Source: Actinomycetota bacterium (GTDB lineage Bacteria > Actinomycetota > Acidimicrobiia > Acidimicrobiales > Ilumatobacteraceae). Taken from it: a stretch of DNA of 64,000 bases. Both the position numbers and the translations under genes were made by a program. The stretch lies in NCBI GenBank assembly GCA_039177505.1, contig JBCDFR010000011.1, forward strand, positions 4,536-68,535, written 5' to 3'. A model generated the notes under the pieces. It worked only from the letters and a program-made list of their open reading frames with translations. It did not search any database and was not told the DNA's origin. Shown here in pieces: positions 318 to 20,397 of this stretch (within the stretch, counting starts at the first letter, position 1; each line of letters begins with the position of its first letter).

Positions 318-3300
318 TCAACACCCGGCGGGCACGCGGATTCTGCGATCGACCGGCATGTCGCTGATCACGATCGCCTCGCCCTGCGGCGGAGTGATCA
401 CGACGTCGACGACCGTTGCAGCACCCAGTCCTAGATGGGCGACGGGCTCCACACCACCACCGAACCCCTGGGCGCCGCCGATCTCGTCGAAGGCGATCAG
501 TGCGTCGGGCTCACCGACACTGCCGGCCCGATAGGCGGCGACGGTCGTCCCCGGCCCGCCGCCGAGCGAGGCAGCGACCGCAACATCGAGAAAGTGACCG
601 CTCGGCGTGCGGTTGAGCAGCAGCCGCGAGGGCAGCCCCGGGTCCCACTCCACGAGCAGCACGTCGAGCCGCCCGTCGCGATCGACGTCCGCCGTTGGTG
701 CACTCACCCAGTATTGGCCGTCTCCGAGCCCGCTCGGTGGCGCAAACCGTGGCGAGTCGGCATCGGCCTGGTTCATGAACACCGCCGGCTCGACCTCGTT
801 GTCGAGTCCGCCGCTGGTCAGCACGTCGACGCGTCCGTCGTTGTCGAGGTCAACAAGCGCCACGTGCGGTGCCTTCGACGACAGCCCGGCCAACCCCGCC
901 TCGGTCGTGATGTCGACGAGCTCAAGATCACCGGGTTCGGAGCGGTTCTCGTACAGCCTGACCGGGACCGGCTCTCCGCCCTCCGCGGCGGAGTTGAAGT
1001 GTTGGCCGATCAGCACATCGAGGTCTCCGTCGCCGTCAACGTCACCGAGCGCCACGCCTGCCGGATCATCCTCATCACCGAACAGCTCCCACGGTTCGAT
1101 CGCGCCGACCACCTCCTCGAGCCCCGAGCCCGTCCCCAGGAACACGCGGTTCGACCCACCGACGACCAGGTCCGTGAGGCCATCACCGTCGAGGTCGCCG
1201 GTTGCGAGCCCGAGACCCCACACGTCGTCGGGCCACCAAGCGCCGCGGAACGGTTCGAACCGCATGTCGCCGAGGTTGCGATAGAGCCGGCTCGAACGGC
1301 CGCGGAACCGATCTTCGAGGATGACCAGGTCGTGGAGCCCGTCGCGGTCGACGTCGATCACCCCGACCGATCTCCCAGGTGACTCGTCGTCGAGCCCGCT
1401 GTTGCGCACGGGAACGAACTGTCCGTCGTCGTTGCGCCACACCTGTGACGGCGTCGGACTCGAACCACTGACGTTGCGGGCGAGCACCAGGTCGAGATCA
1501 CCGTCCAGATCGAGGTCGGTGAACAACGCCCCGCTCGTCCGTCCGATCGGGGCGTCGAGGGCGAGATCGCTCCAACTCCCATCAGCCGTGCCGCCGAGGA
1601 GGCGATCCGGATTCGGGACGGAGGCGCCGCGTTGTCGGTAGTCCTCGGCCGGGCGGTCACCGAACGTGCCGACCACGAGGTCGACGAGCTGATCACCGTC
1701 GACATCGCCCCATGCCGCGGCGTGACCCATCATCCCGACCAGCGCGTCGTCGAGCCCACTCGCGGCGGTGACGTCCTCCCAGCGGATCTCGCCGGTGGAC
1801 TCCGCCGACGACACCGGTGCTGCCCAGCAGGTGAGCCCCGCGACCTCCGTCGACGCAGTGGACTCGACCGACACACCGGTGGTGCGCCCGTCGCCGGGGA
1901 GGTCGATCTGTAGGAGCACGACCTCGCCGAACGTCGAGTCGTCGCGTGTGGACACCGGGGCGCTGTTGAGGCCGACGAAGAGCCGCCGCCGCTCGGCATC
2001 GAGCACAAGGTTGTACGTGCCGCCTGCGGTGAGCCCGAGCGCGTCCTCGGTCAGCGGATTGAGTTCGACGATCTTGTCGATCGAGCCGGTCGCAGTGTCC
2101 AACGCCATCAGCGGGGTACCGGACGTCCATGCAGAGCCGTGAGCACCCGGGATGAAGTACACCGTCGAGCCGTCGGGCTCCATGGCGATCGAGGCGACGT
2201 AGCCGGGGGCTTCACCGAGTTCGTCGATGCTGCCGTCGGGTCGCAATGCGAAGAACTTGTTGTCCGGCCGGTTCGTGATCCCGTAGATCGTGCCGTCGGG
2301 TGCCGGCGGGGTCGCCGCCCGCAGAAACCGGCCGGGTATCGGGTCGGGCAACTCCGTCATCTCGCCGGTCGATGGGCTCCACCGCGTGAGGTGGCCTTCC
2401 GGCGACGAGAACAGCACGGCGCCATCGGATTCGATGGCCATCGCACGAAACCCGACGTGGGCCGGGGAGTCGTCGAGGATGGTGGACTCGCCCGTCGCCG
2501 TGTCGTAGCTGAACAGCACGCCGGCGTCGGGCGACGACTCCGGATCGACCGCCTCACCGAACAGGACGGTCGAGGCGGCTGAGCCGGCCATCGACGGTGT
2601 GCCGTGATCCTCGACCGGCACACCGAGCGCGCTGGTAGTTCGGGCGGTCGGGTCGAGGCGGAACAGGACGTCGCCGTCGTAGCCGTTCTGGTATTCGAGT
2701 CCACGGCGCGATCCCCAGTAGGTCGACGTGTAGATGTGGTCGCACGGCCCGACGATCATCTGCGCGTGCACCTTGCCAAAACCCCATGCCCCGCGCTGGT
2801 GGTCGACGAGCGACAGTGCGTCGCCGATCATCCGCAGTTCGCCGCTCTCGGGGTCGTACTCGTAGAGGTAGCTGTTGCCGTCAGCACCGAGGTGATCGCC
2901 GACCGCTGAGAAGAACCGCCCGTCGCTGATCACCGCCCCCTGGCCCCACTGCGACCACGGCGCCCCGGTGTCGCTCGGACCGGGATACACCGCCCCGGTC
3001 ACTCGTAGCCCGTCGTCGCGCGCGAGCAACTCCTCCATCGTGGTCTCGTCGAGGGTCGACCATTCCGTGGCATCAGGGTCGGGCGGTAGGCACGCTGCGT
3101 CGGCAGGAGCTGAGGTCGATGGTGCCTGGGCCGATGGTGCCTGGGCCGATGGTGCCTGGGCCGATGTCGGCGGCACGGCCGAGGTTGCCGTGGGCGCCGG
3201 CCCGCCGCTGGTCGGCGATGACGACACCGGTTCGGCCGCCGACGTCGTCGAGGGCGAGGCGTCGACAGCGGAAGACACCGCTGTGTTGTCCTCGCCGGCC

Positions 3301-3440
3301 GTGCACGCCGCGAGCAAGGCCCCCACTGCGAACGCAAGCACGACGCGACGCACACCACAAGTCTTGCCGATCGCGCCCGGGTCGTGGGAGCGGGACGCAT
3401 CACAATCCGACACGGTGCTCGAGAACGGGCCACCCAGCAT
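318..3440 (-). CDS. Large secreted lipoprotein: beta-propeller-like N-terminal half plus FG-GAP/VCBS repeat, ASPIC/UnbV-type (CRTAC1-like) C-terminal half
   Basis: Lower part of track ORF 318..4256. ATG 3440 (or GTG 3353) precedes the lipobox VRRVVLAFAVGALLAAC, followed by a Ser/Pro/Ala linker. There are at least 7 FG-GAP-type repeats: GDVDGDQLVDLVVG, DLDLDGDLDLVLA, DVDRDGLHDLVIL, GDLDGDGLTDLVVGG, GDVDGDGDLDVLIG, DLDNDGRVDVLTSG, DVDRDGRLDVLLVEW. The ORF portion above 3440 is antisense to gene 3511..4797 and was discarded. Confidence 0.8.
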   Translation of the reverse strand: MLGGPFSSTVSDCDASRSHDPGAIGKTCGVRRVVLAFAVGALLAACTAGEDNTAVSSAVDASPSTTSAAEPVSSSPTSGGPAPTATSAVPPTSAQAPSAQAPSAQAPSTSAPADAACLPPDPDATEWSTLDETTMEELLARDDGLRVTGAVYPGPSDTGAPWSQWGQGAVISDGRFFSAVGDHLGADGNSYLYEYDPESGELRMIGDALSLVDHQRGAWGFGKVHAQMIVGPCDHIYTSTYWGSRRGLEYQNGYDGDVLFRLDPTARTTSALGVPVEDHGTPSMAGSAASTVLFGEAVDPESSPDAGVLFSYDTATGESTILDDSPAHVGFRAMAIESDGAVLFSSPEGHLTRWSPSTGEMTELPDPIPGRFLRAATPPAPDGTIYGITNRPDNKFFALRPDGSIDELGEAPGYVASIAMEPDGSTVYFIPGAHGSAWTSGTPLMALDTATGSIDKIVELNPLTEDALGLTAGGTYNLVLDAERRRLFVGLNSAPVSTRDDSTFGEVVLLQIDLPGDGRTTGVSVESTASTEVAGLTCWAAPVSSAESTGEIRWEDVTAASGLDDALVGMMGHAAAWGDVDGDQLVDLVVGTFGDRPAEDYRQRGASVPNPDRLLGGTADGSWSDLALDAPIGRTSGALFTDLDLDGDLDLVLARNVSGSSPTPSQVWRNDDGQFVPVRNSGLDDESPGRSVGVIDVDRDGLHDLVILEDRFRGRSSRLYRNLGDMRFEPFRGAWWPDDVWGLGLATGDLDGDGLTDLVVGGSNRVFLGTGSGLEEVVGAIEPWELFGDEDDPAGVALGDVDGDGDLDVLIGQHFNSAAEGGEPVPVRLYENRSEPGDLELVDITTEAGLAGLSSKAPHVALVDLDNDGRVDVLTSGGLDNEVEPAVFMNQADADSPRFAPPSGLGDGQYWVSAPTADVDRDGRLDVLLVEWDPGLPSRLLLNRTPSGHFLDVAVAASLGGGPGTTVAAYRAGSVGEPDALIAFDEIGGAQGFGGGVEPVAHLGLGAATVVDVVITPPQGEAIVISDMPVDRRIRVPAGC
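3118..3166. repeat. 15-bp tandem repeat, about 3.2 copies (gatggtgcctgggcc on + strand), encoding (AQAPS)n in the lipoprotein linker
   Basis: Perfect units at 3118-3132, 3133-3147 and 3148-3162, plus a partial unit. On the minus strand it translates as SAQAPSAQAPSAQAPS. Confidence 0.9.
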
Positions 3441-3510
3441 GGGACGTGACCTACTTCGCCGACGATGGAATGATGTGCTGGTAATCAGGAGTGCACGGCC
3501 ACACCACATC

Positions 3511-4797
3511 ATGGTCACCGCGGCCATCGCCCTCGCTGTCGCCGCTTGCAGCACCGAGGAGAGCACACAGACCGCCCAAACCAGCGTGGCGCCGACGAGC
3601 GCCGGTGTCGTCACCACGATCCCACGGCCGACCACCACCGCTGTATCGACGACCTCGTCGACGGTGGCCGAGACAGCACCGTCGACGGCCCCGAGTTCGA
3701 CGTCGCCACCAGCGACGACCCCGGCGCCGACCACCACGGTGCCGCCCGCCGCGCCACCGCCGAACGACAACTTCGCGGCCGTACAGATCGGGTTCGAACA
3801 GGTCGCCGACGTCAACTCACCCACCGCGATCGCGTGGCGCGACGGAGATCCATCGATGTACGTGACCACCCAGGAAGGCTTCATCTCGCGCACCACACCC
3901 GACGGGTTGGTCCCCGTCGGCGACCTGTCGGGAGAAACGATCGAACTGCTGTCAGGATCCGAACGAGGTCTGCTCGGCGCGGCGTTCGACCCCCGAGACG
4001 GCCGGCTGTACGTCAACTTCACCGATCTCGACAACAACACACGTGTCTGGTCGTACGAGATGGCCGAGGCGTCGATCGTGCCCGACTCGCGCCGGGAGAT
4101 CCTGATGATCGAACAGCCGGGCGTCGGCCACAACGGTGGTGGGCTGCTGTTCGACGCCGACGGCAACCTTTTCATCGGCTCCGGTGACGGTGGTGGCAGC
4201 AACGGTCGCGACGCAGCCGATACGTCGAAGCTGCTCGGCGTGATCATGCGCATCACCCCGAATCTCGACGGCGATGGCTACACCATCCCGACCGACAACC
4301 CCTTCGCCGATGGTGTCGCCGACCGGCCCGAGGTGTGGGCGCGCGGCTTCCGCAATCCGTGGAGCTTCTCCATCGACTGGCCGACCGGCGACATGTGGAT
4401 CGGCGACGTCGGCAACGACGAACGCGAAGAGGTCAGTGTGATGCGGGGCGGCGAACGCGGCCTCAACTTCGGGTGGCCGTGGTTCGAGGGCACGAATCCG
4501 CGGCGTTCAGGCGCCCCCGAGGGCGTGATCCCACCGGTGTTCGACTACCCCCGCAGCGACGGTGTCGCGGTGATGGGCGGCCACGTGTACCGCGGTGCCG
4601 CATTCCCCGAGCTGGAGGGGGCATATCTGTTCGCCGACCTCGGCGGTGCGATGTGGGCGATCGGTGCCGACGGTGTGTCGCGACTCGACGTCGACCCGCC
4701 GACCGGCATCGTCGGTTGGGGCGAAGACCCCGACGGCGAGCTGTATCTGTTGTCGCTGTACGACGGTGTGTTCAAGCTCGTGCCGGAGAACAGCTAG
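3511..4797 (+). CDS. PQQ-dependent sugar dehydrogenase (soluble glucose/sorbosone dehydrogenase family) lipoprotein
   Basis: ATG 3511 gives MVTAAIALAVAAC (lipobox). Family blocks present: GLLGAAFDP, HNGGGLLFDADGNLFIGSGDGG, RGFRNPWSFSID..TGDMWIGDVGNDEREEV, GWPWFEG. ATG 3439 is an alternative start. Confidence 0.85.
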   Translation: MVTAAIALAVAACSTEESTQTAQTSVAPTSAGVVTTIPRPTTTAVSTTSSTVAETAPSTAPSSTSPPATTPAPTTTVPPAAPPPNDNFAAVQIGFEQVADVNSPTAIAWRDGDPSMYVTTQEGFISRTTPDGLVPVGDLSGETIELLSGSERGLLGAAFDPRDGRLYVNFTDLDNNTRVWSYEMAEASIVPDSRREILMIEQPGVGHNGGGLLFDADGNLFIGSGDGGGSNGRDAADTSKLLGVIMRITPNLDGDGYTIPTDNPFADGVADRPEVWARGFRNPWSFSIDWPTGDMWIGDVGNDEREEVSVMRGGERGLNFGWPWFEGTNPRRSGAPEGVIPPVFDYPRSDGVAVMGGHVYRGAAFPELEGAYLFADLGGAMWAIGADGVSRLDVDPPTGIVGWGEDPDGELYLLSLYDGVFKLVPENS

Positions 4798-7436: not shown

Positions 7437-8110
7437 CAGATCTGCAACAGCGAGTGCACGTGCTCGTCGACATCGACGGGATGGACGAGCGCCGCACCGA
7501 TCGCTGCGCGGAGACCGCGCACCGAGGTGTCGAGCGACATGCTCGGATGGCCCAGGTTCTCATCGACGGCGGCCACCTCGGGAAGCTGTGGCAGGTGCAC
7601 CCAGCCGGCCTTGATGCCGAGAGCCTCCGACGCGATGTGCTGCAGCACCCCGTACATCAGGTGGTTACACATCAGCGTGCCACCGGTATCGGAGATGTCG
7701 GCGGGTACGCCAGCTCGACGCATCGCCAGCACCATGGCGCGAATCGGCAGGGTGGCGTAGATGCCGACCGGACCGCCAGGAACGGTCTCGTCGTCTTCGA
7801 GGATCACTCCGTCGTTGTCGGCAATGCCGTATCGCGCTGAGTCGTTCAGGTTCTGCGCGATCCGCTCGGCGGTGATCATCGACCGTCCCGGATACTCACC
7901 GAGCATCACGACGTGAGACGGCGACGTCTCAGCGATGGCAGCTGCGACCACGTCGATACAACGAAACCACCTGCTGGGAGCGATGAGCCCCGTCACCGGA
8001 ACCCCGTCGATCGTCTCGCCGTCGAGCGCCTCGGCGGTCAGCTGTGCAGGATTGGTCGGGGTGGTGCCGTACGGCTCGAACCCGGTCACCAGCACTTGCG
8101 AGGCCGTCAT
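7436..8110 (-). CDS. pcp: Pyroglutamyl-peptidase I (pyrrolidone-carboxylate peptidase, C15)
   Basis: ATG 8110 gives MTASQVLVTGFEPYG. Also present: ERIAQN, a catalytic Cys context GGTLMCNHLMY, and VHLP. Confidence 0.85.
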   Translation of the reverse strand: MTASQVLVTGFEPYGTTPTNPAQLTAEALDGETIDGVPVTGLIAPSRWFRCIDVVAAAIAETSPSHVVMLGEYPGRSMITAERIAQNLNDSARYGIADNDGVILEDDETVPGGPVGIYATLPIRAMVLAMRRAGVPADISDTGGTLMCNHLMYGVLQHIASEALGIKAGWVHLPQLPEVAAVDENLGHPSMSLDTSVRGLRAAIGAALVHPVDVDEHVHSLLQI

Positions 8111-8203
8111 CTCACTCCGCTCTGTCGTCGATCGAATGGGCAGCGAGAGCGCTGCACTCGGTAGCACGCGCAGGTTAATCAAGTACACGTCGCTCTGACC
8201 CGA

Positions 8204-9376
8204 GTGCTCGGCTCAAGCGGGACCGGACCGACGTGCAAGTGTTGGTGTGTGATCCTCGACACGCTCGACATCGACACTGATGCCTTCTTGGCGGGCACCG
8301 GCTGGCAGATCAAACCCGAAGGCGCCTGCAAGGGCGAGGTCTGTGTGCCGCTCCCTGACGGGTTCTCGCTCGAGCACGCCGCGCAACGACTGGGCATGGC
8401 GTTGGTCGCCGATGAGTCCACCGGCCGCTGGGCGCTCGGTCCGGAATCGCTGAACGGCCAAGCGCTCGTCACTGCCGAGGCCCCCGATTTGGTGCTCGAC
8501 GACATCGATGGCAACGAGTTCCGCCTGTCGTCGTTGCGCGGCAAGAAGGTGGTGCTCGTCGCCTGGGCGCCGTATTGAGGCTGTCGTTATGACCTGCCCG
8601 GGTGGCAGGCACTGCACGAGGAACTGAGCCCGCACGGTGTCGAGATCGTCACGGTGTCGTTGGAACTGAGTGGGCCTGAGGTGTCGCGGCCGTTCATCGA
8701 TGCGGCATCGCCCAGTCATCCGTCACTGTTGGATCCGACACACCAGATGGACGCGTTGTTTGGAGTGGTCAACATCCCCAACGTCATCTGGATCGACGAA
8801 CAGGGCATCATCGTCCGGTCTGCAGAGCCCGGGTTCCCGGGGGGCGACCACTACCCCGATTGGCTGCGCTCGTTCCTCGACGAACGCGACGCGGCGGCCG
8901 AAGCCAAGGCGGCCGAGATCGAAGCAACCGATCCAGAGCTTGCGGCCAAGATGCGCGGCGGTCAGGATCAGCAGTCGTACGCCGACGCGCTTCGAGACTG
9001 GGCAACCAACGGCGCCGAGAGCCGATTCGCGATGTCCCCAGACGAGGTCATCGCCGCGTCACAGCCGCGTCCCGCTGCTGTGTCGGAAGCCGCGGCGCAC
9101 TTCGAACTGGCCAACGACTTGTGGCGCCGCGACGATCGTGACGCGGCGATTCCGCACTTCAACGCCGCCCACCGCCTGCAGCCCGACAACTGGACCTACA
9201 AGCGTCAGGCCTGGTCGCTGGTCGGCAACGAGCGCGCCGGTGGCGGAGAACTCGGTCGCTTCAATCAAGGTCCCCTGCCCGGCGAAGAAAACGACTGGCC
9301 CTTCGACGGCAACTTCACCGAAGAAGCTGGCAGCACTCCGGCCGGCGACTATTACCCCAAGACCCTTGACCTCTGA
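8204..9376 (+). CDS. Candidate selenoprotein: ResA/TlpA-like thioredoxin-fold protein with in-frame TGA (8576-8578) at the active site, plus C-terminal helical/TPR-like extension
   Basis: Track ORFs 8204..8578 and 8654..9376 share a frame (450 nt apart), and 8579-8653 has no stop. The joined product reads ...GKKVVLVAWAPY-[TGA]-GCRYDLPGWQALHEELSPHGVEIVTVSLE...LFGVVNIPNVIWIDEQGIIVR. The start is uncertain (GTG 8204 or GTG 8249). The alternative reading is a pseudogene. Confidence 0.6.
8590..8611 (+). promoter_or_regulatory. Putative bacterial SECIS-like hairpin downstream of TGA 8576
   Basis: Pairs are t8590-a8611 and g8591-c8610, then a bulged a8592, then c8593-c8598 paired with g8604-g8609 (CCTGCC/GGCAGG). 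The loop at 8599-8603 is CGGGT. An 11-nt spacer (8579-8589) separates it from the TGA. Folded by eye only. Confidence 0.45.
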
Positions 9377-9451
9377 GCGGCGACAACCTCCCCGGGTACA
9401 CCGAACCCACAGATCGTGTTGGTCGGTCCGCTCGGCGCGGCCTCCCGTAGG

Positions 9452-9874
9452 TCAGGCACGGCGAAGTGCTCTTCGGGCTACCGGGCCCCAGCGCGCCGTG
9501 TGCGAACTCCGGAGTCGGCGGGACACGACATGGCCGGCTCGACGCAACGCCTTGCTTCGTCGCTTTGCTGCGTCGACCGCCGGAGCCGCATCGGCAGCGC
9601 CCGCCAAGCAACCTTCTGCGACGGCGGCGACGAAACGCTTCTGACGCTTCTTCGAGCGGACCTTGTTGACAACAACGGCTCGACCGCGGGAATCAATGAC
9701 GACGGCTACCGGTCCATGGCAGACACCGAGACACGGTGATTGAGCGATCTTCACCGAGGCGTTCTCGAGGCGCCGCACCAGCGTGCGGTAGGCATCACAC
9801 TGGTCCTTGGCACAGTCGCTCCCGCGACACACCACAACCGACAGCGGTGCATCAGATCGACCGCCGTCACCCAT
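9452..9874 (-). CDS. Thioredoxin-like [2Fe-2S] ferredoxin-domain protein with strongly basic C-terminal tail
   Basis: ATG 9874 gives MGDGGRS. The Cys pattern is C-x4-C (CRGSDC), then 26 residues, then C-x3-C (CLGVC), as in NuoE/thioredoxin-like ferredoxins. The tail is rich in K/R (KVRSKKRQKR...RRALRRA). Confidence 0.55.
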   Translation of the reverse strand: MGDGGRSDAPLSVVVCRGSDCAKDQCDAYRTLVRRLENASVKIAQSPCLGVCHGPVAVVIDSRGRAVVVNKVRSKKRQKRFVAAVAEGCLAGAADAAPAVDAAKRRSKALRRAGHVVSRRLRSSHTARWGPVARRALRRA

Positions 9875-11971: not shown

Positions 11972-14602
11972 GTGGGTTTGGTGATCGGTCGAGACGATGA
12001 ACTAGCGCTGGCGCTGACGACCGTGGCCGAGCGGCCGGGGTGCGTCGTCATCACCGGCGCGGCGGGCGTCGGCAAGACACACCTCGCCGGCGCCATCGGC
12101 GACGCGCTCCGTTCCGACGGGATTGACGTCGCCCGGATCACGGGAACACTGTCCTCGTCGTCCGTTCCGCTCGGCGCCTTGGCCCCGCTGCTCCCGACGA
12201 TGCCTGCGAACCCCGACATGGAGAACGCGGCTGCCGGTGCCGGCACGCTGCTGCTGCTGCAACATGCGACCGACAACCTCATCCGTGCCCAGGACGATTC
12301 GCAGCGCCGCGCACTCATCATCGACGACGCGCAACATCTCGACCTGACATCGGCGATCGTCATCGCCCAACTCGCTGCCGATCAGACGATCACGACCATC
12401 TTGACCGTGCGCACAGGAGATCCGACGCCCGACCCGATCACCGCGCTCGGTACCAATGGCGCAGCAGCACGGATCCATCTCGACCCACTCGACGAAGCCG
12501 ACAGCGCACGATTCGCAGCCGGTGTCCTCGGCGCCCCGCTCGACGGAGCGTCATCGCACCGCCTGTTCGCGCTCGGTGCCGGCAACCCGCTGTTCGTGGA
12601 GGAGTTGCTGGCGAGTGCGCTGCGAGACTCGGCACTCACCGAATCAGACGGCCGGTGGCGGTTGCACGAACGCTGGCGACCGTCGATTCGAGGTGGCCGC
12701 GTCTCCGATCTCGTCCGCGCCCGCCTCGACCAGCTCGACGACAAACATCGCGAGTGCGTCGAGCTGATCGCATTGTCCGAGCCGGTCGCTCTGAGCGAGG
12801 CCGAACGCCTCGTCGATACCGAAGCGCTCGAAGCGCTCGAAGTCGCCGAGCTCGTCGCGGTCCGCCACGACAACGTGGAGATCCGGCACCCCCTCGTCGG
12901 CGAGGTCGTACGCGCCGGGCTCGCCGTGACACGCCGACGGCGGCTGTACGGCCTGCTCGCGGAACGATCGAACCCCGTCGTCGAAGACGACATCGACATG
13001 ATGCGTCATGCGCTGTGGGTACTCGAGTCCGGCACCGTCGATCGGCCCTTGTTTGCGGCAGCCACCAAGTTCGCCCGGTTCGCCGACGACTATCCGGTCG
13101 GACTGCGGTTCGCGGAGGCGATCGTCGCAGAAAGCGAGCACTTCGAGGCTGCCGTCCTCGCCGGCGAGATGGCCTATCAGCTCGGCGACCACAAGGCCAG
13201 CGAGGCCTGGCTCCAACGCGCCGCACGAGTCGCACACGGCCCCGACGAGGAAGCGCTGGTGGTCATCAATCAGCTCTCGACCGTGTACTGGGGGCTCGCC
13301 GATTGGGAGCTGTGCACGTCATTGGTCGACGAGTTTCGAGATCGACATCCCGACAGTGACTGGGCAGGCGACCTGGAAGGACTGCTCGGCACGCTGTGCA
13401 TGTTCAACGGCGAGCCCGACGAGGCACTCCGACGCATCGTGCCGCTCCGTCGGCGCAACGATCAGCGCGCCAGAGTCGAAGTGGCGTTCGTAAGTGCGCC
13501 AGCCCTCGGCCAGAAGGGACGCACCGACGAGGCGGTGGCGGTCGCGGAGCGGGGATTCTCCGAACACGTCGAACTCGGTGAGCAAGTCGGGCTCGGCGCA
13601 TCGGGGAACCACATGATGACCATGCTCAGCGCGCAGTCGAACGGCGGCCGTCTAGCAACGGCAGAGCAGCTCGGCCAGACCATCTACGACGTGGTGCGTC
13701 GCTCGTGGCAGCCGATGTCGATCGCCATCGTGGCCTACACGAACGGCCGCACCGACCTCGCCCGCGGACGTCCGGCGGCCGCCGCACAGTGGTTTCGAGA
13801 GGGCGCCGCGACCGCCCGCGGACCACAGAACCGCGACTCGTTGCGGTGGTGTCTCGGAGGGTTGGCCCTGGCCTTGGCACGCGTCGGCGCAACCGAGCTC
13901 GGACAGGAAGCGTTGGAGGAGGCATTGGCGCTCGACGGTCTGGCACGGTTGAGCGACATCGACATCGAACGCGCTACGGCGCAGCTGCGTGTTAACGCAG
14001 GCGACCTTGCTGCTGCGTCGGCGGGTCTGATCGAAGCCGCAGCGCGCTGGCGCGAGAACGGCCACGCGATCAACGAGGCCGAAGCGCTCCACGCGCTGGT
14101 CTCGATCGGCGAGCCCGATCTCGCGGCAGCGCGGCTCGCCGAGCTCGCCGCGGAGTCCGACGCCGAGGCGATCACGGTGCCAGCTCGGCATGCCGCAGCG
14201 GCGCTCGCCGCCGACATCGACGCGCTCGAGCAGGTCGCCCACGACTATCTCGCGCACGGAGCCGAGTTCTCCGCTGCTGAGGCGTTGGCCGGTGCCGCGC
14301 ACCACGCACGTGCCGGCGGAGATGTGCGCCGAGCGACCGGGCTGACCACCCGGTCGCGCTCGATCGCGCAGCGCTGCGAAGGATCGATCAACCCGGTACT
14401 GATGACCGGCGAAGAACCGACACCACTGACCAAGCGCGAGCGTGAGATCGCACTTCTCGCCGCGAACGGCATGCGCAGCAAACAGATCGCCGAAACACTG
14501 ACGCTGTCGGTGCGTACCGTCGACAATCACCTCCAGAACGTCTACACCAAACTCGGCATCAGCGATCGCGCCGACCTCCCCGACGCGCTCACGCCCTCCT
14601 GA
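11972..14602 (+). CDS. LAL-type (large ATP-binding LuxR-family) transcriptional regulator
   Basis: N-terminal Walker A VVITGAAGVGKTHLA, Walker B-like ALIIDDAQHLD, a long helical middle region, and a C-terminal LuxR HTH LTKREREIALLAANGMRSKQIAETLTLSVRTVDNHLQNVYTKLGI. Confidence 0.9.
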   Translation: MGLVIGRDDELALALTTVAERPGCVVITGAAGVGKTHLAGAIGDALRSDGIDVARITGTLSSSSVPLGALAPLLPTMPANPDMENAAAGAGTLLLLQHATDNLIRAQDDSQRRALIIDDAQHLDLTSAIVIAQLAADQTITTILTVRTGDPTPDPITALGTNGAAARIHLDPLDEADSARFAAGVLGAPLDGASSHRLFALGAGNPLFVEELLASALRDSALTESDGRWRLHERWRPSIRGGRVSDLVRARLDQLDDKHRECVELIALSEPVALSEAERLVDTEALEALEVAELVAVRHDNVEIRHPLVGEVVRAGLAVTRRRRLYGLLAERSNPVVEDDIDMMRHALWVLESGTVDRPLFAAATKFARFADDYPVGLRFAEAIVAESEHFEAAVLAGEMAYQLGDHKASEAWLQRAARVAHGPDEEALVVINQLSTVYWGLADWELCTSLVDEFRDRHPDSDWAGDLEGLLGTLCMFNGEPDEALRRIVPLRRRNDQRARVEVAFVSAPALGQKGRTDEAVAVAERGFSEHVELGEQVGLGASGNHMMTMLSAQSNGGRLATAEQLGQTIYDVVRRSWQPMSIAIVAYTNGRTDLARGRPAAAAQWFREGAATARGPQNRDSLRWCLGGLALALARVGATELGQEALEEALALDGLARLSDIDIERATAQLRVNAGDLAAASAGLIEAAARWRENGHAINEAEALHALVSIGEPDLAAARLAELAAESDAEAITVPARHAAAALAADIDALEQVAHDYLAHGAEFSAAEALAGAAHHARAGGDVRRATGLTTRSRSIAQRCEGSINPVLMTGEEPTPLTKREREIALLAANGMRSKQIAETLTLSVRTVDNHLQNVYTKLGISDRADLPDALTPS

Positions 14603-18945: not shown

Positions 18946-20397
18946 GTGGCCGACTCACGTCCGAACGTCCTGATGTTCATGACCGACCAGCTGCGCTACG
19001 ACGCGCTCGCGTGCAGCGGCTCGCCGGTGGCGCACACTCCACACTTCGACGCGGTCGCCTCGCGCGGCGTTCGATTCACCGGCGCGTTCAGCCAGCACTC
19101 GGTGTGCGGCCCGAGTCGGGTCTCGATGCTCACGGGTTGGTATCCGCACGTAGCAGGTCATCGCACGCTCACCAATCTGGTGAAACCGCACGAGCCGAAC
19201 CTGCTGGCCCTGCTGCGCGACGCCGGGTACCACGTGGCATGGGCCGGCGAACGCGGCGACATGTTCGCCCCCGGCGTGGCCGATGCCTCGACCGACCGGC
19301 GCGGCTTCGAGGTCAGGCCCACGGTGATGATGGAGCCGAGCCCCTTCGGACCGGACGATCCTTGGTTCAACGCGCACTATCACGGTCGGCGCGCCGGTGG
19401 ACCCGACGGCCCGACCCTTGACTTCGACGAAGCGACCGTCCGGACGGCGATCGAGTGGATCACCGACGGCTTGCCCGAACCGTGGTGTCTGTTGATCGCG
19501 TTGGTCTTTCCCCACCCGCCGTTCGTCGCCGAAGAGCCGTGGTTCTCGATGCACGACCGCACGGCGGTGCCGGCTCCCGCGCCGTGGGTTGCCGACAGCA
19601 AGCCGCGGTTCATGCAGGCGTTGCGCGAGCGTTACGGAACCGGCGAGTTCGATCAACAACGCTGGGCCGAAATTGCGGCGACGTACCACGGCATGGTCAG
19701 TCGAGCCGACGATCAACTCGGCCGCGTGCTGGCAGCGATCGACCAGGCGGGACAGAGCGAACGCACGATGACCTGGTGCTTCACCGATCACGGCGAGTAT
19801 CTCGGCGACCACGGCCTGGTCGAGAAGTGGCCATCGGGGCAACACGACGTGCTGCTGCGCAACCCACTGCTCGTCGCGGGGCCCGGAGTCGTCGAAGGTG
19901 GCAGGTGCAATGCACTCGTCGAGATGGTCGATCTGCTCCCGACGCTGCTCGACGTCGCCGGTGGCGAGGCCGGCCACACCCACTTCGGACGGTCGCTCGT
20001 CGGCGTGCTGGCAGATCCGTCGAGCGATCACCGAACGCATGCCTTCGCGGAAGGCGGATTCGTTCTCGCTGAACGACACCTGCTCGAGCAGGCGCGAGGC
20101 GCGTACGCACCCAAGGCAATCCAGCAGCACGACGACCCGGCGTCGGTCGGCAAGGCGATGTCTGTGCGCACGCACACACACAGCTACGTGCATCGACTGT
20201 ACGAAGGCCCCGAGTTGTACGACCTCGTCGACGACCCCTACGAGACGGTCAACCTCGCCGGGCGAGTAGCGGTCGCCGACGTCGAAGCGGCACTGCGCGC
20301 CGAGCTGATGGAATGGATGTTGGCGACCACCGACGTGATCCCGTGGGAGAAGGACCCGCGCTTCGAGCCGACCATGCTCGAACTGTTCGCCCGCTGA
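18946..20397 (+). CDS. Sulfatase (Cys-type, formylglycine-dependent arylsulfatase family)
   Basis: NVLMFMTDQLRYD; the C-x-P-x-R signature is in SVCGPSRVSMLTG; also FTDHGEYLGDHG. GTG start at 18946. Confidence 0.85.
   Translation: MADSRPNVLMFMTDQLRYDALACSGSPVAHTPHFDAVASRGVRFTGAFSQHSVCGPSRVSMLTGWYPHVAGHRTLTNLVKPHEPNLLALLRDAGYHVAWAGERGDMFAPGVADASTDRRGFEVRPTVMMEPSPFGPDDPWFNAHYHGRRAGGPDGPTLDFDEATVRTAIEWITDGLPEPWCLLIALVFPHPPFVAEEPWFSMHDRTAVPAPAPWVADSKPRFMQALRERYGTGEFDQQRWAEIAATYHGMVSRADDQLGRVLAAIDQAGQSERTMTWCFTDHGEYLGDHGLVEKWPSGQHDVLLRNPLLVAGPGVVEGGRCNALVEMVDLLPTLLDVAGGEAGHTHFGRSLVGVLADPSSDHRTHAFAEGGFVLAERHLLEQARGAYAPKAIQQHDDPASVGKAMSVRTHTHSYVHRLYEGPELYDLVDDPYETVNLAGRVAVADVEAALRAELMEWMLATTDVIPWEKDPRFEPTMLELFAR

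What the first reader, a model, noticed from the sequence alone, without database searches (positions are those of the whole stretch)
8204..9376. In-frame TGA at the active-site position of a ResA/TlpA-like thioredoxin-fold gene, with a SECIS-like hairpin 11 nt downstream: candidate selenoprotein split into two ORFs by the track
Seen in the sequence:
- ORF 8204..8578 stops at TGA 8576-8578.
- ORF 8654..9376 is in the same frame (8654-8204 = 450).
- The 75 nt between them have no stop. They read GCRYDLPGWQALHEELSPHGVEIVT, mostly with G/C third positions, so they look coding.
- Joined, the product reads ...NEFRLSSLRGKKVVLVAWAPY-[TGA]-GCRYDLPGWQALHEELSPHGVEIVTVSLE...HQMDALFGVVNIPNVIWIDEQGIIVR. 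This is the beta1 / active-site / alpha1 ... cis-Pro (NIP) / beta-hairpin order of TlpA/ResA/AhpC-TSA thioredoxin-fold proteins.
- The TGA sits where the N-terminal redox nucleophile belongs, next to a Cys (motif W-A-x-x-TGA-G-C).
- Neither half alone is a complete fold, and the GTG 8654 model would start inside the domain without a clear Shine-Dalgarno.
- Exactly 11 nt after the TGA a hairpin can form: 8590-8591 pair with 8610-8611, A8592 is bulged, and CCTGCC 8593-8598 pairs with GGCAGG 8604-8609. The 5-nt loop is CGGGU.

Established knowledge:
- Bacterial Sec insertion needs a UGA followed closely by a SelB-binding stem-loop.
- In the E. coli fdhF paradigm the minimal upper stem-loop lies about 11 nt from the UGA. 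It has a bulged nucleotide and G/U in the loop.
- Many bacterial selenoproteins are thioredoxin-fold redox proteins with Sec replacing a catalytic Cys.

Inference: this is a UGA-recoded selenoprotein that standard ORF calling breaks in two. I have an unverified recollection that an actinobacterial ResA-like family is defined by a WAxx(U/C)GC motif; this needs a database check. No selA/selB/selD/selC is visible in this window.
Basis: partly seen in the sequence, partly recalled or inferred. Interest (0 to 1): 0.8.

Follow-up and report, generated by a model that had tools for sequence, protein, structure and literature searches.

The report
Known ResA-like selenoprotein gene (WAxxUGC)
The two ORFs are one gene for a thioredoxin-fold selenoprotein whose in-frame TGA encodes selenocysteine with the help of a conserved downstream RNA hairpin; it belongs to a family that NCBI already curates, so the call is correct but not new.

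Summary
TGA 8576-8578 lies in frame inside one 375-codon gene (GTG 8249 to stop 9376). Among 79 species-level homologues the column holds TGA in 76, TAG in 2 Blastococcus (a lineage reported to decode Sec with a CUA-anticodon tRNA) and TGC in 1. A metagenome scan found at least 120 TGA forms and no TGY forms of the same pattern. The 6-bp stem and 5-nt loop (8593-8609) pairs in 79 of 79 homologues. It shows C-G to U-A compensatory changes at two pairs and suppressed synonymous variation. Cys-form homologues lose the LP(G/V)WQ peptide that encodes it. In three Acidimicrobiia genomes the gene sits beside selA-selB-selD-tRNA-Sec. I could not check the Sec machinery in this organism: it is absent from the window and the contig is not in the collections. 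Verdict: a real selenoprotein of an already known family, with low novelty. Its biochemical function and its orphan N-terminal two-Cys domain remain uncharacterised.

The parts
8249..9376 (+). Complete selenoprotein gene: 375 codons plus stop TGA 9374-9376, start GTG 8249. Member of NCBIfam NF041054 (WAxxUGC_long).
   Evidence: NF041054 446.7 bits against cut-off 300, covering residues 2-371. Homologues start at the equivalent M/V-I-L. tblastn of the joined protein matches 8249-9373 as one segment.
8576..8578 (+). In-frame TGA, the selenocysteine codon (residue U110) in the motif W106-A-P-Y-U-G-C112.
   Evidence: The same column is TGA in 76, TAG in 2 and TGC in 1 of 79 loci. HMMER aligns it to the N-terminal Cys of the CxxC motif of TlpA and a thioredoxin-family protein.
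8582..8584 (+). Cys112 (TGT), the presumed resolving partner of Sec110 (U-G-C, one-residue spacer).
   Evidence: Invariant Cys in all 79 loci. It aligns to the second Cys of CxxC with a one-residue gap.
8593..8609 (+). Conserved core of the bacterial SECIS hairpin. The 6-bp stem is CCUGCC/GGCAGG (8593-8598 with 8604-8609) and the 5-nt loop is CGGGU (8599-8603). It starts 14 nt after the UGA and is encoded by D-L-P-G-W-Q-A.
   Evidence: Paired in 79 of 79 genome loci, with C-G to U-A double changes at two pairs. In 117 independent metagenome sequences the inner 5 bp pair in 117 of 117 and the closing pair in 110 of 117. Synonymous entropy is at most 0.65 bits here against 1.2-1.9 bits for 4- to 6-fold degenerate codons elsewhere. 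Folding energy -9.3 kcal/mol.
8590..8611 (+).
   Evidence: It forms in this sequence (-10.5 kcal/mol). Pair 8590-8611 is unpaired in 57 of 79 homologues, and 8591-8610 is G-C in 72 of 79 without covariation.
8249..8464 (+). N-terminal domain of about 70 aa with invariant G18, W19, G25, C27, C32, G64 and P65. Function unknown.
   Evidence: Alignment of 51 sequences. AlphaFold2 pLDDT 90. No significant PDB fold match, best E 1.3.
8471..8833 (+). Thioredoxin-fold (ResA/TlpA-like) domain, residues about 75-195. It spans the Sec codon and includes the cis-Pro region N175-I-P.
   Evidence: Pfam AhpC-TSA 60 bits and Redoxin 43 bits over residues 75-195. PDB sequence hits to 3kcm, TlpA and ResA. In the model of the homologue P0002 this domain superposes on ResA 1st9 with TM 0.79 and rmsd 1.5 A over 117 columns. 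The two Cys sit at the N-terminus of helix 113-131, after strand 102-108.
8861..9373 (+). C-terminal helical domain, TPR-like around residues 281-314 (9089-9190), with the invariant N-W-T-Y-K-R-Q-A-W motif.
   Evidence: Weak Pfam TPR_2 hit (E 5e-4, below cut-off). Helices in the AlphaFold2 model of P0002. Invariant columns.

Best explanation
One gene (8249..9376) encodes a soluble, probably cytoplasmic, three-domain redox protein of the curated 'ResA-like WAxxUGC motif-containing protein' family.

During translation, UGA 8576-8578 is read as selenocysteine. The mRNA hairpin 14 nt downstream (8593-8609; 6 bp, loop CGGGU) acts as a bacterial SECIS. It recruits SelB.GTP.Sec-tRNA(Sec) to the ribosome so that Sec is inserted in competition with release factor 2.

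Sec110 occupies the position of the N-terminal nucleophilic Cys of the thioredoxin-fold CxxC motif, at the N-terminus of helix alpha-1. With Cys112 it is expected to cycle between selenol/thiol and a selenenylsulfide (U-G-C), acting as a thiol-disulfide oxidoreductase or reductase.

Shown here: family membership, conservation of the stop codon at the catalytic column, conservation and covariation of the hairpin, and physical linkage to sel genes in relatives.

Inferred: SelB binding, actual Sec insertion in this organism, the redox chemistry and the cellular substrate.
For: (1) NF041054 equivalog hit, 446.7 bits against cut-off 300, full length. NCBI and nr use this name for homologues P0200 and P0226.

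(2) Codon at the column: 76 TGA, 2 TAG and 1 TGC among 79 loci from different species. Amino-acid conservation is strong on both sides.

(3) The same degenerate DNA pattern found at least 120 metagenome stretches with TGA and none with TGY.

(4) The two TAG cases are Blastococcus. Geodermatophilaceae are reported to have tRNA-Sec with a CUA anticodon and Sec-UAG selenoproteins (PMC5330540). So the codon follows the lineage's Sec codon.

(5) Hairpin:
- 100% pairing of 6 bp in 79 of 79 loci, with compensatory C-G to U-A changes at two pairs. The covariation score exceeds all 500 shuffles and every slid register.
- Replicated in 117 metagenome sequences.
- The Leu codon is only CTG or TTG, and the Pro codon only CCC or CCA. 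Neighbouring Leu and Pro codons vary freely.

(6) Cys forms keep DLP[GV]WQ in only 7 of 61, against 78 of 79 Sec forms. The Cys form L083 has lost the hairpin.

(7) tRNA-Sec(UCA) with SelA, SelB and SelD (all TIGRFAM equivalog hits above cut-off) lie directly beside the gene in L023, L025 and L030.

(8) TGA is the ordinary stop of most predicted genes in the window: 39 of 52, counting the 8204..8578 fragment. So there is no genome-wide reassignment.

(9) The Pfam domain and the ResA-like fold span the TGA.
Against: No selA, selB, selD or tRNA-Sec lies in the 64-kb window. The source contig is not on record, so the Sec machinery of this organism is unverified.

No Rfam family matches. A preprint notes that bacterial SECIS elements are poorly represented in Rfam (10.64898/2026.04.03.716425).

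The single-sequence folding energy is not significantly better than shuffles.

Part of the stem conservation is forced by the conserved peptide (Trp TGG, Pro CC-). The two compensatory changes may each trace to few evolutionary events: the 8594/8608 change is confined to six near-identical loci.

There is no experimental evidence for Se incorporation or for the protein's activity.
Confidence: 0.93

Rival explanations
1. Pseudogene or sequencing/assembly error: a TGC or TGT Cys codon was mutated or misread to TGA, so the gene is broken here.
For: Cys-form homologues with TGC at this column exist (L070, L082, L083; 61 full-length Cys proteins). The window has no Sec machinery.
Against: The same TGA is present in 76 of 79 homologues from different species and in at least 120 metagenome contigs. 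There are no other frame disruptions. GC3 is coding-like (0.84 and 0.77) and protein conservation is high on both sides. The SECIS hairpin is under nucleotide-level selection.
Confidence: 0.02
2. Genuine termination at TGA: two separate products, an N-terminal protein of about 109-124 aa and a 240-aa protein restarted at GTG 8654.
For: This is what standard ORF callers output. Most database homologues are recorded as fragments of 230-260 aa.
Against: The Pfam AhpC-TSA/Redoxin domain (residues 75-195) and the ResA-like fold span the stop, and the TGA sits exactly at the catalytic position. The fragment start codons differ between homologues (lengths 214-273 aa), which is typical of gene-caller artefacts. 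Cys forms are single proteins of 344-366 aa. The 75-nt 'gap' is the most conserved DNA of the region.
Confidence: 0.02
3. UGA is read through, but with a standard amino acid (Cys, Trp or another near-cognate) rather than Sec. This could happen if the organism has lost its Sec machinery or grows under selenium limitation.
For: Sec machinery could not be verified for this genome.
Against: The intact, selectively maintained SECIS hairpin and the UGA are identical in design to those of relatives whose gene abuts selA-selB-selD-tRNA-Sec. Lineages that no longer rely on Sec show Cys codons and relaxed hairpin sequence. The closest relatives (71-76% identity, L001-L005, L012, L032) all keep TGA.
Confidence: 0.03

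Closest known systems
NCBIfam NF041054.1 'WAxxUGC_long', ResA-like WAxxUGC motif-containing protein (equivalog model used by NCBI's PGAP annotation)
   Same: Full-length match at 446.7 bits against cut-off 300. Identical motif W-A-P-Y-U-G-C. Same length class (375 aa against a 354-position model). NCBI and nr give homologues this name (P0200 Frankia sp. QA3, P0226).
   Different: Nothing that was tested. The window's exact sequence is not in the collections searched; the closest hit is the fragment P0001 at 95% identity. No paper in the searchable library uses the family name, so the family appears to be curated but not experimentally characterised.
Bacillus subtilis ResA and Bradyrhizobium TlpA (extracytoplasmic thiol-disulfide oxidoreductases of cytochrome maturation)
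   Same: Same thioredoxin-fold subtype. The AlphaFold2 model of homologue P0002 superposes on ResA 1st9 with TM 0.79 (normalised to ResA) and rmsd 1.5 A at 27% identity. Sequence hits to TlpA 1jfu and several ResA entries at E 1e-9 to 1e-10. The redox pair sits at the N-terminus of helix alpha-1.
   Different: The redox motif is U-G-C (one spacer residue, Sec as nucleophile) instead of C-x-x-C. No membrane anchor or signal peptide is evident (maximum Kyte-Doolittle 19-residue mean 1.12). There is an extra N-terminal two-Cys domain and a C-terminal helical domain. The protein scores below the cut-offs of the ResA, TlpA and StoA models (61, 39 and 40 bits against 170, 230 and 210). No conserved neighbouring gene was found across loci.
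E. coli fdhF-type bacterial SECIS (SelB-binding stem-loop inside the coding region, just 3' of UGA)
   Same: A stem-loop lies immediately downstream of the UGA within the ORF, with the apical loop about 20 nt from the UGA. A G-U dinucleotide is present in every loop variant (CGGGU, CGUGU, AGGUU, AGUGU). The spacing is fixed, with no indels in 79 sequences. The fdhF features themselves are from my own knowledge of the literature and were not checked here.
   Different: The conserved stem is only 6 bp and starts 14 nt, not 11 nt, after the UGA. SelB binding is untested.
Sec-UAG 'AhpC' selenoprotein of Blastococcus saxobsidens DD2 and CUA-anticodon tRNA-Sec of Geodermatophilaceae (Santesmasses et al. 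2017, PMC5330540, citing Mukai et al. 2016)
   Same: Two Blastococcus homologues of this family (L014, L016) carry TAG at the Sec column, followed by the same hairpin. The family hits Pfam AhpC-TSA.
   Different: I could not verify that the published B. saxobsidens 'AhpC' is the same family, because the figure is not held. The window itself uses the standard UGA.

Membership tests
NCBIfam NF041054 ResA-like WAxxUGC motif-containing protein | HMM score at or above the curated cut-off (300 bits) over the full length | tested here: met
   446.7 bits, E 6.4e-134, residues 2-371 on profile positions 2-351 of 354.
NCBIfam NF041054 ResA-like WAxxUGC motif-containing protein | Motif W-A-x-x-U-G-C with U encoded by an in-frame stop codon | tested here: met
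   W106-A-P-Y-[TGA 8576-8578]-G-C112.
SelB/SECIS-dependent bacterial selenoprotein gene | In-frame UGA at a column where homologues have UGA or Cys, with conservation on both sides | tested here: met
   76 TGA, 2 TAG and 1 TGC among 79 loci. Full-length Cys forms exist.
SelB/SECIS-dependent bacterial selenoprotein gene | Stem-loop shortly 3' of the UGA, conserved across homologues and supported by covariation | tested here: met
   6 bp paired in 79 of 79 and, in a second set, 110-117 of 117. Compensatory changes at 2 pairs. Synonymous sites suppressed.
SelB/SECIS-dependent bacterial selenoprotein gene | selA, selB, selD and tRNA-Sec present in the same genome | not testable with these tools
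   None in the window and the contig is not on record. Met in relatives L023, L025 and L030, where the genes are adjacent.
SelB/SECIS-dependent bacterial selenoprotein gene | Selenium actually incorporated (75Se labelling or mass spectrometry) | not testable with these tools
   Experimental.
ResA/TlpA thiol-disulfide oxidoreductases (cytochrome maturation) | Thioredoxin fold of the ResA/TlpA subtype | tested here: met
   Foldseek hit to 1st9 at E 7e-11, TM 0.79, rmsd 1.5 A, for the model of homologue P0002, which is 61% identical in the alignment.
ResA/TlpA thiol-disulfide oxidoreductases (cytochrome maturation) | C-x-x-C active site | tested here: not met
   U-G-C, one residue shorter. HMMER inserts a gap.
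ResA/TlpA thiol-disulfide oxidoreductases (cytochrome maturation) | Score above the curated family cut-off (ResA NF002854: 170; TlpA NF047696: 230) | tested here: not met
   61.2 and 38.6 bits.
ResA/TlpA thiol-disulfide oxidoreductases (cytochrome maturation) | N-terminal membrane anchor or signal peptide (extracytoplasmic location) | tested here: not met
   No hydrophobic segment: maximum Kyte-Doolittle 19-residue mean 1.12, with an acidic N-terminus. This is a crude test.
Peroxiredoxin (AhpC/TSA, Pfam PF00578) | Pfam domain score above the gathering threshold | tested here: met
   60 bits against 26. This is domain-level similarity shared by many thioredoxin-fold proteins.
Peroxiredoxin (AhpC/TSA, Pfam PF00578) | Peroxidatic motif P-x-x-x-T/S-x-x-C (from established knowledge of the family) | tested here: not met
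   Read directly from the sequence: V-L-V-A-W-A-P-Y-U. There is no Thr or Ser at -3 and no Pro at -7 relative to the Sec.

The most novel reading that the evidence does not exclude
The family is curated by name only. It could be a functionally new cytoplasmic selenoenzyme rather than a ResA analogue. A ResA-like domain with an unusual one-spacer U-G-C centre is fused to an N-terminal domain that has two invariant Cys (C27, C32) and no fold match in the PDB, and to a TPR-like C-terminal domain. Together these might form an intramolecular Se/S redox relay that acts on an unknown substrate.
Probability: 0.3. Interest if true: 0.45.

Novelty: already known. Interest (0 to 1): 0.2.

Why it matters
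For annotation: the two ORF models (8204..8578 and 8654..9376) should be merged into one selenoprotein gene, 8249..9376, with a translation exception at 8576-8578. Most public copies of this family are stored as truncated fragments of about 240 aa, so the error is systematic.

For biology: the gene marks this acidimicrobial organism as a probable selenocysteine user. The data also illustrate how a coding-region SECIS constrains the peptide it encodes: LP(G/V)WQ is fixed in Sec forms and free in Cys forms. None of this is new in kind. The unknown substrate and the orphan N-terminal domain are the only open questions.

Tried and rejected
- Rfam scan of the window: no hit. This is not informative for bacterial SECIS elements.
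- Literature search for 'WAxxUGC': no paper.
- Single-sequence folding statistics: the hairpin is in the MFE structure, but the z-scores are not significant. I relied on comparative data instead.
- Looking up the window's own contig through two of its proteins: not on record. The genome-wide search for sel genes was therefore impossible.
- tblastn of verified SelA, SelB and SelD from L030 against the window: nothing.
- Screen for other in-frame-TGA gene pairs in the window: only ordinary adjacent genes. My thresholds also missed the target itself, so this screen is weak.
- Conserved gene neighbourhood across 80 loci: none beyond antisense shadow ORFs and generic short-chain dehydrogenases.
- Metagenome scan for Cys-form DNA, intended as a hairpin control: 0 hits. 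I used the three Cys-form loci with DNA and 61 Cys-form proteins instead.
I used homologue P0002 and the window's own N-terminal 72 aa.
- PDB fold search with the N-terminal domain: no significant match.
- Promoter and terminator scan of 8000-9600: nothing.
- Genome-wide UGA reassignment: rejected, because TGA terminates most predicted genes in the window.
Full report
OBSERVATION.
- ORF 8204..8578 ends at TGA 8576-8578.
- ORF 8654..9376 is in the same frame.
- The 75 nt between them have no stop and read GCRYDLPGWQALHEELSPHGVEIVT.
- RNAfold reproduces the proposed hairpin exactly. The segment 8590-8611 folds as ((.((((((.....)))))))) at -10.5 kcal/mol, and the 17-nt core 8593-8609 at -9.3 kcal/mol.

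On one sequence alone this is not clearly beyond chance in GC-rich DNA. The z-scores are -1.5 and -1.75 and +0.56 for the 71-nt region. The case therefore rests on comparative evidence.

WHAT IT IS. The joined protein, with U written as C, matches NCBIfam NF041054.1 'WAxxUGC_long, ResA-like WAxxUGC motif-containing protein'. This is an equivalog model. The score is 446.7 bits against a cut-off of 300, over residues 2-371.
- Pfam places an AhpC-TSA/Redoxin domain on residues 75-195, which spans the TGA at residue 110, plus a weak TPR_2 hit at 281-314.
- The true start is most likely GTG 8249, not 8204, because homologues begin M/V-I-L at that point. This gives a 375-residue product.

HOMOLOGUES AND THE SEC COLUMN. 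A protein search returned 2068 relatives.
- The great majority are stored as fragments of 230-260 aa that begin just after the TGA. That is the signature of gene callers stopping at a Sec codon.
- A few full-length forms carry WAPYCGC.
- A scan of species-representative genomes found at least 595 relatives. The best 80 are mostly Acidimicrobiia MAGs (Ilumatobacter and relatives). Others come from Blastococcus, Dehalococcoidia, Pseudomonadales, Myxococcales and Burkholderiales.
- Of the 79 loci that cover the site, 76 have TGA, 2 have TAG and 1 has TGC.
- In the metagenome collection, a degenerate pattern for W-[AS]-P-Y-Cys-G-C-x-x-D-L-P found nothing. The Cys pattern was validated on two Cys-form loci.
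- A second protein search found 61 full-length Cys forms, mostly WASWCGC. NCBI and nr name two of them (Frankia sp. QA3; uncultured Albidiferax sp.) 'ResA-like WAxxUGC motif-containing protein'.

A NATURAL CONTROL. The two TAG cases are both Blastococcus (L014, L016), and they keep the same downstream hairpin. Santesmasses et al. 2017 (PMC5330540) report that Geodermatophilaceae tRNA-Sec carries a CUA anticodon, citing Mukai et al. 2016. [quoted passage not shown] The codon at this column therefore tracks the lineage's Sec codon. This is hard to explain unless the column is Sec.

THE SECIS HAIRPIN. In an ungapped alignment of 79 sequences, the 6-bp stem (window 8593-8598 with 8604-8609) forms a standard pair in every sequence (474 of 474 cells).
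- Pair 8593/8609 is C-G in 69, U-A in 6 and U-G in 4. The U-A cases lie in several different loci: L017, L020, L038, L066, L071 and L080.
- Pair 8594/8608 is C-G in 73 and U-A in 6. Here a synonymous Leu CUG to UUG change is matched by a synonymous Gln CAG to CAA change, in six near-identical loci.
- The covariation score beats all 500 column shuffles and all slid registers.
- An independent set of 117 unique metagenome sequences replicates this. The inner 5 bp pair in 117 of 117 and the closing pair in 110 of 117.
- Nucleotide-level constraint is local to the hairpin. The hairpin Leu codon is only CTG or TTG, and the Pro codon only CCC or CCA, never the otherwise common CCG. Synonymous codon entropy is at most 0.65 bits at codons +6 to +8, against 1.2-1.9 bits for comparable codons elsewhere.
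- Loop variants are CGGGU, CGUGU, AGGUU and AGUGU. All contain G-U.
Pair 8590/8611 is unpaired in 57 of 79. Pair 8591/8610 is G-C in 72 of 79 without covariation. The conserved stem starts 14 nt after the UGA, so the 11-nt spacing holds only for this window's extended helix.

CYS-FORM CONTRAST. If the hairpin were only a by-product of a functionally needed peptide, Cys forms should keep that peptide. They do not.
- DLP[GV]WQ is present in 78 of 79 Sec forms but in only 7 of 61 Cys forms. The Cys forms read DLSGWRK, DLSLWQA, DLRLWSA and so on.
- DNA was available for three Cys forms. L083 uses Leu CTT and has lost the hairpin; its best fold is -2.7 kcal/mol in another register. L070 uses Pro CCG, which is never seen in Sec forms. 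L082 keeps the hairpin.
- The sample with DNA is small, but the protein-level contrast is strong.

SEC MACHINERY. The window has no tRNA at all. It has no homologue of verified SelA, SelB or SelD. Its contig is not in the searchable collections. Relatives give indirect support.
- L025 and L030 have the gene directly upstream of selA-selB-selD-tRNA-Sec(UCA).
- L023 has tRNA-Sec, selD, selB and selA flanked by two paralogues of this family, both with the in-frame TGA.
- These identifications rest. TIGR00474, TIGR00475 and TIGR00476 all score above their cut-offs.
- Genome-wide reassignment of UGA is excluded, because TGA terminates most predicted genes in the window: 39 of 52, counting the 8204..8578 fragment.

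THE PROTEIN.
- HMMER aligns U-G-C to the C-x-x-C of TlpA and a thioredoxin-family protein with a one-residue gap. Sec falls on the N-terminal, nucleophilic Cys.
- AlphaFold2 on the Cys homologue P0002 (61% identical to the window protein in the alignment) gives a confident three-domain model, with pLDDT 91 and pTM 0.90.
- In that model the two Cys (112 and 114) sit at the N-terminus of helix 113-131, after strand 102-108.
- Its middle domain superposes on B. subtilis ResA with TM 0.79 and rmsd 1.5 A.
- No hydrophobic segment is present. Unlike ResA and TlpA, the protein is therefore probably cytoplasmic.
- It scores far below the ResA, TlpA and StoA cut-offs, and it lacks the peroxiredoxin P-x-x-x-T-x-x-C motif.
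- The N-terminal domain of about 70 aa has invariant G18, W19, G25, C27, C32, G64 and P65. It folds confidently (pLDDT 90) but has no significant PDB match.
- No neighbouring gene is conserved across loci. In the window the neighbours are a pyroglutamyl peptidase, a short-chain dehydrogenase, a PLP enzyme and a LuxR-type regulator.

MECHANISM AND CONFIDENCE. The best-supported account has two parts.
- Recoding: SelB-dependent recoding of UGA 8576-8578 is directed by the 8593-8609 hairpin. I put this at 0.93.
- Chemistry: the resulting Sec110/Cys112 pair acts as a selenenylsulfide-forming redox centre in a ResA-like fold. This part is inferred from the fold and the motif and was not tested.

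The rivals each get 0.02-0.03: a pseudogene or sequencing error, two separate products, and non-Sec read-through.

NOVELTY. This is already known. It is a curated NCBIfam family, and standard PGAP annotation would name it. The practical value is to correct the split ORF models. The residual open questions are the family's substrate and the role of the orphan N-terminal two-Cys domain. I found no paper addressing either.

Noticed in passing
L014:10259-10261 and L016:10334-10336: Two Blastococcus homologues carry TAG instead of TGA at the Sec column, followed by the same hairpin. This agrees with the reported CUA-anticodon tRNA-Sec and Sec-UAG usage in Geodermatophilaceae (PMC5330540).
   Followed up: partly
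L023:1-5522; L025:10001-15571; L030:10001-15706: In three Acidimicrobiia genomes the family gene directly abuts selA-selB-selD-tRNA-Sec. In L023 two paralogues (WASW*GC and WAPY*GC) flank the sel cluster. Some MAGs hold two copies, each on a different contig of the same MAG (L015 with L053; L030 with L079).
   Followed up: partly
window 8573-8581 and the same columns in L001-L080: The codon before the Sec codon is TAT in 60 and TAC in 12 of the 72 Tyr cases, although these genomes are GC-rich. The base after the stop codon is always G. This may be a context effect on Sec insertion versus termination.
   Followed up: no
window 8249-8464: The N-terminal domain of about 70 aa has invariant G18, W19, G25, C27, C32, G64 and P65. 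It is predicted confidently (pLDDT 90) but has no significant structural match in the PDB (best E 1.3).
   Followed up: partly
window 8599-8603; L041:10369-10390: Loop variants that start with A (AGGUU, AGUGU) can form a seventh A-U pair, leaving a 3-nt loop (-9.1 kcal/mol in L041). Loops that start with C cannot.
   Followed up: no
window 8179-8544 (-) and 8213-8719 (-): Long antisense ORFs overlap the selenoprotein gene, and they recur in 56 of the loci. They are shadow ORFs of a conserved GC-rich gene, not separate genes.
   Followed up: partly
L044 (CAMDVC010000160.1), L009, L059: Short contigs labelled Bifidobacterium breve MAG or Deltaproteobacteria carry copies of the gene. The L044 active-site peptide is identical to that of the Ilumatobacteraceae/Acidimicrobiaceae loci L041 and L045-L047, so that contig is probably mis-binned.
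   Followed up: no
window 318-4256 (-), 11972-14602 (+), 18946-20397 (+): Other large genes in the window: a 1312-aa FG-GAP/ASPIC repeat protein, an 876-aa AAA-ATPase/LuxR-family regulator and a sulfatase. None relates to selenium metabolism.
   Followed up: partly
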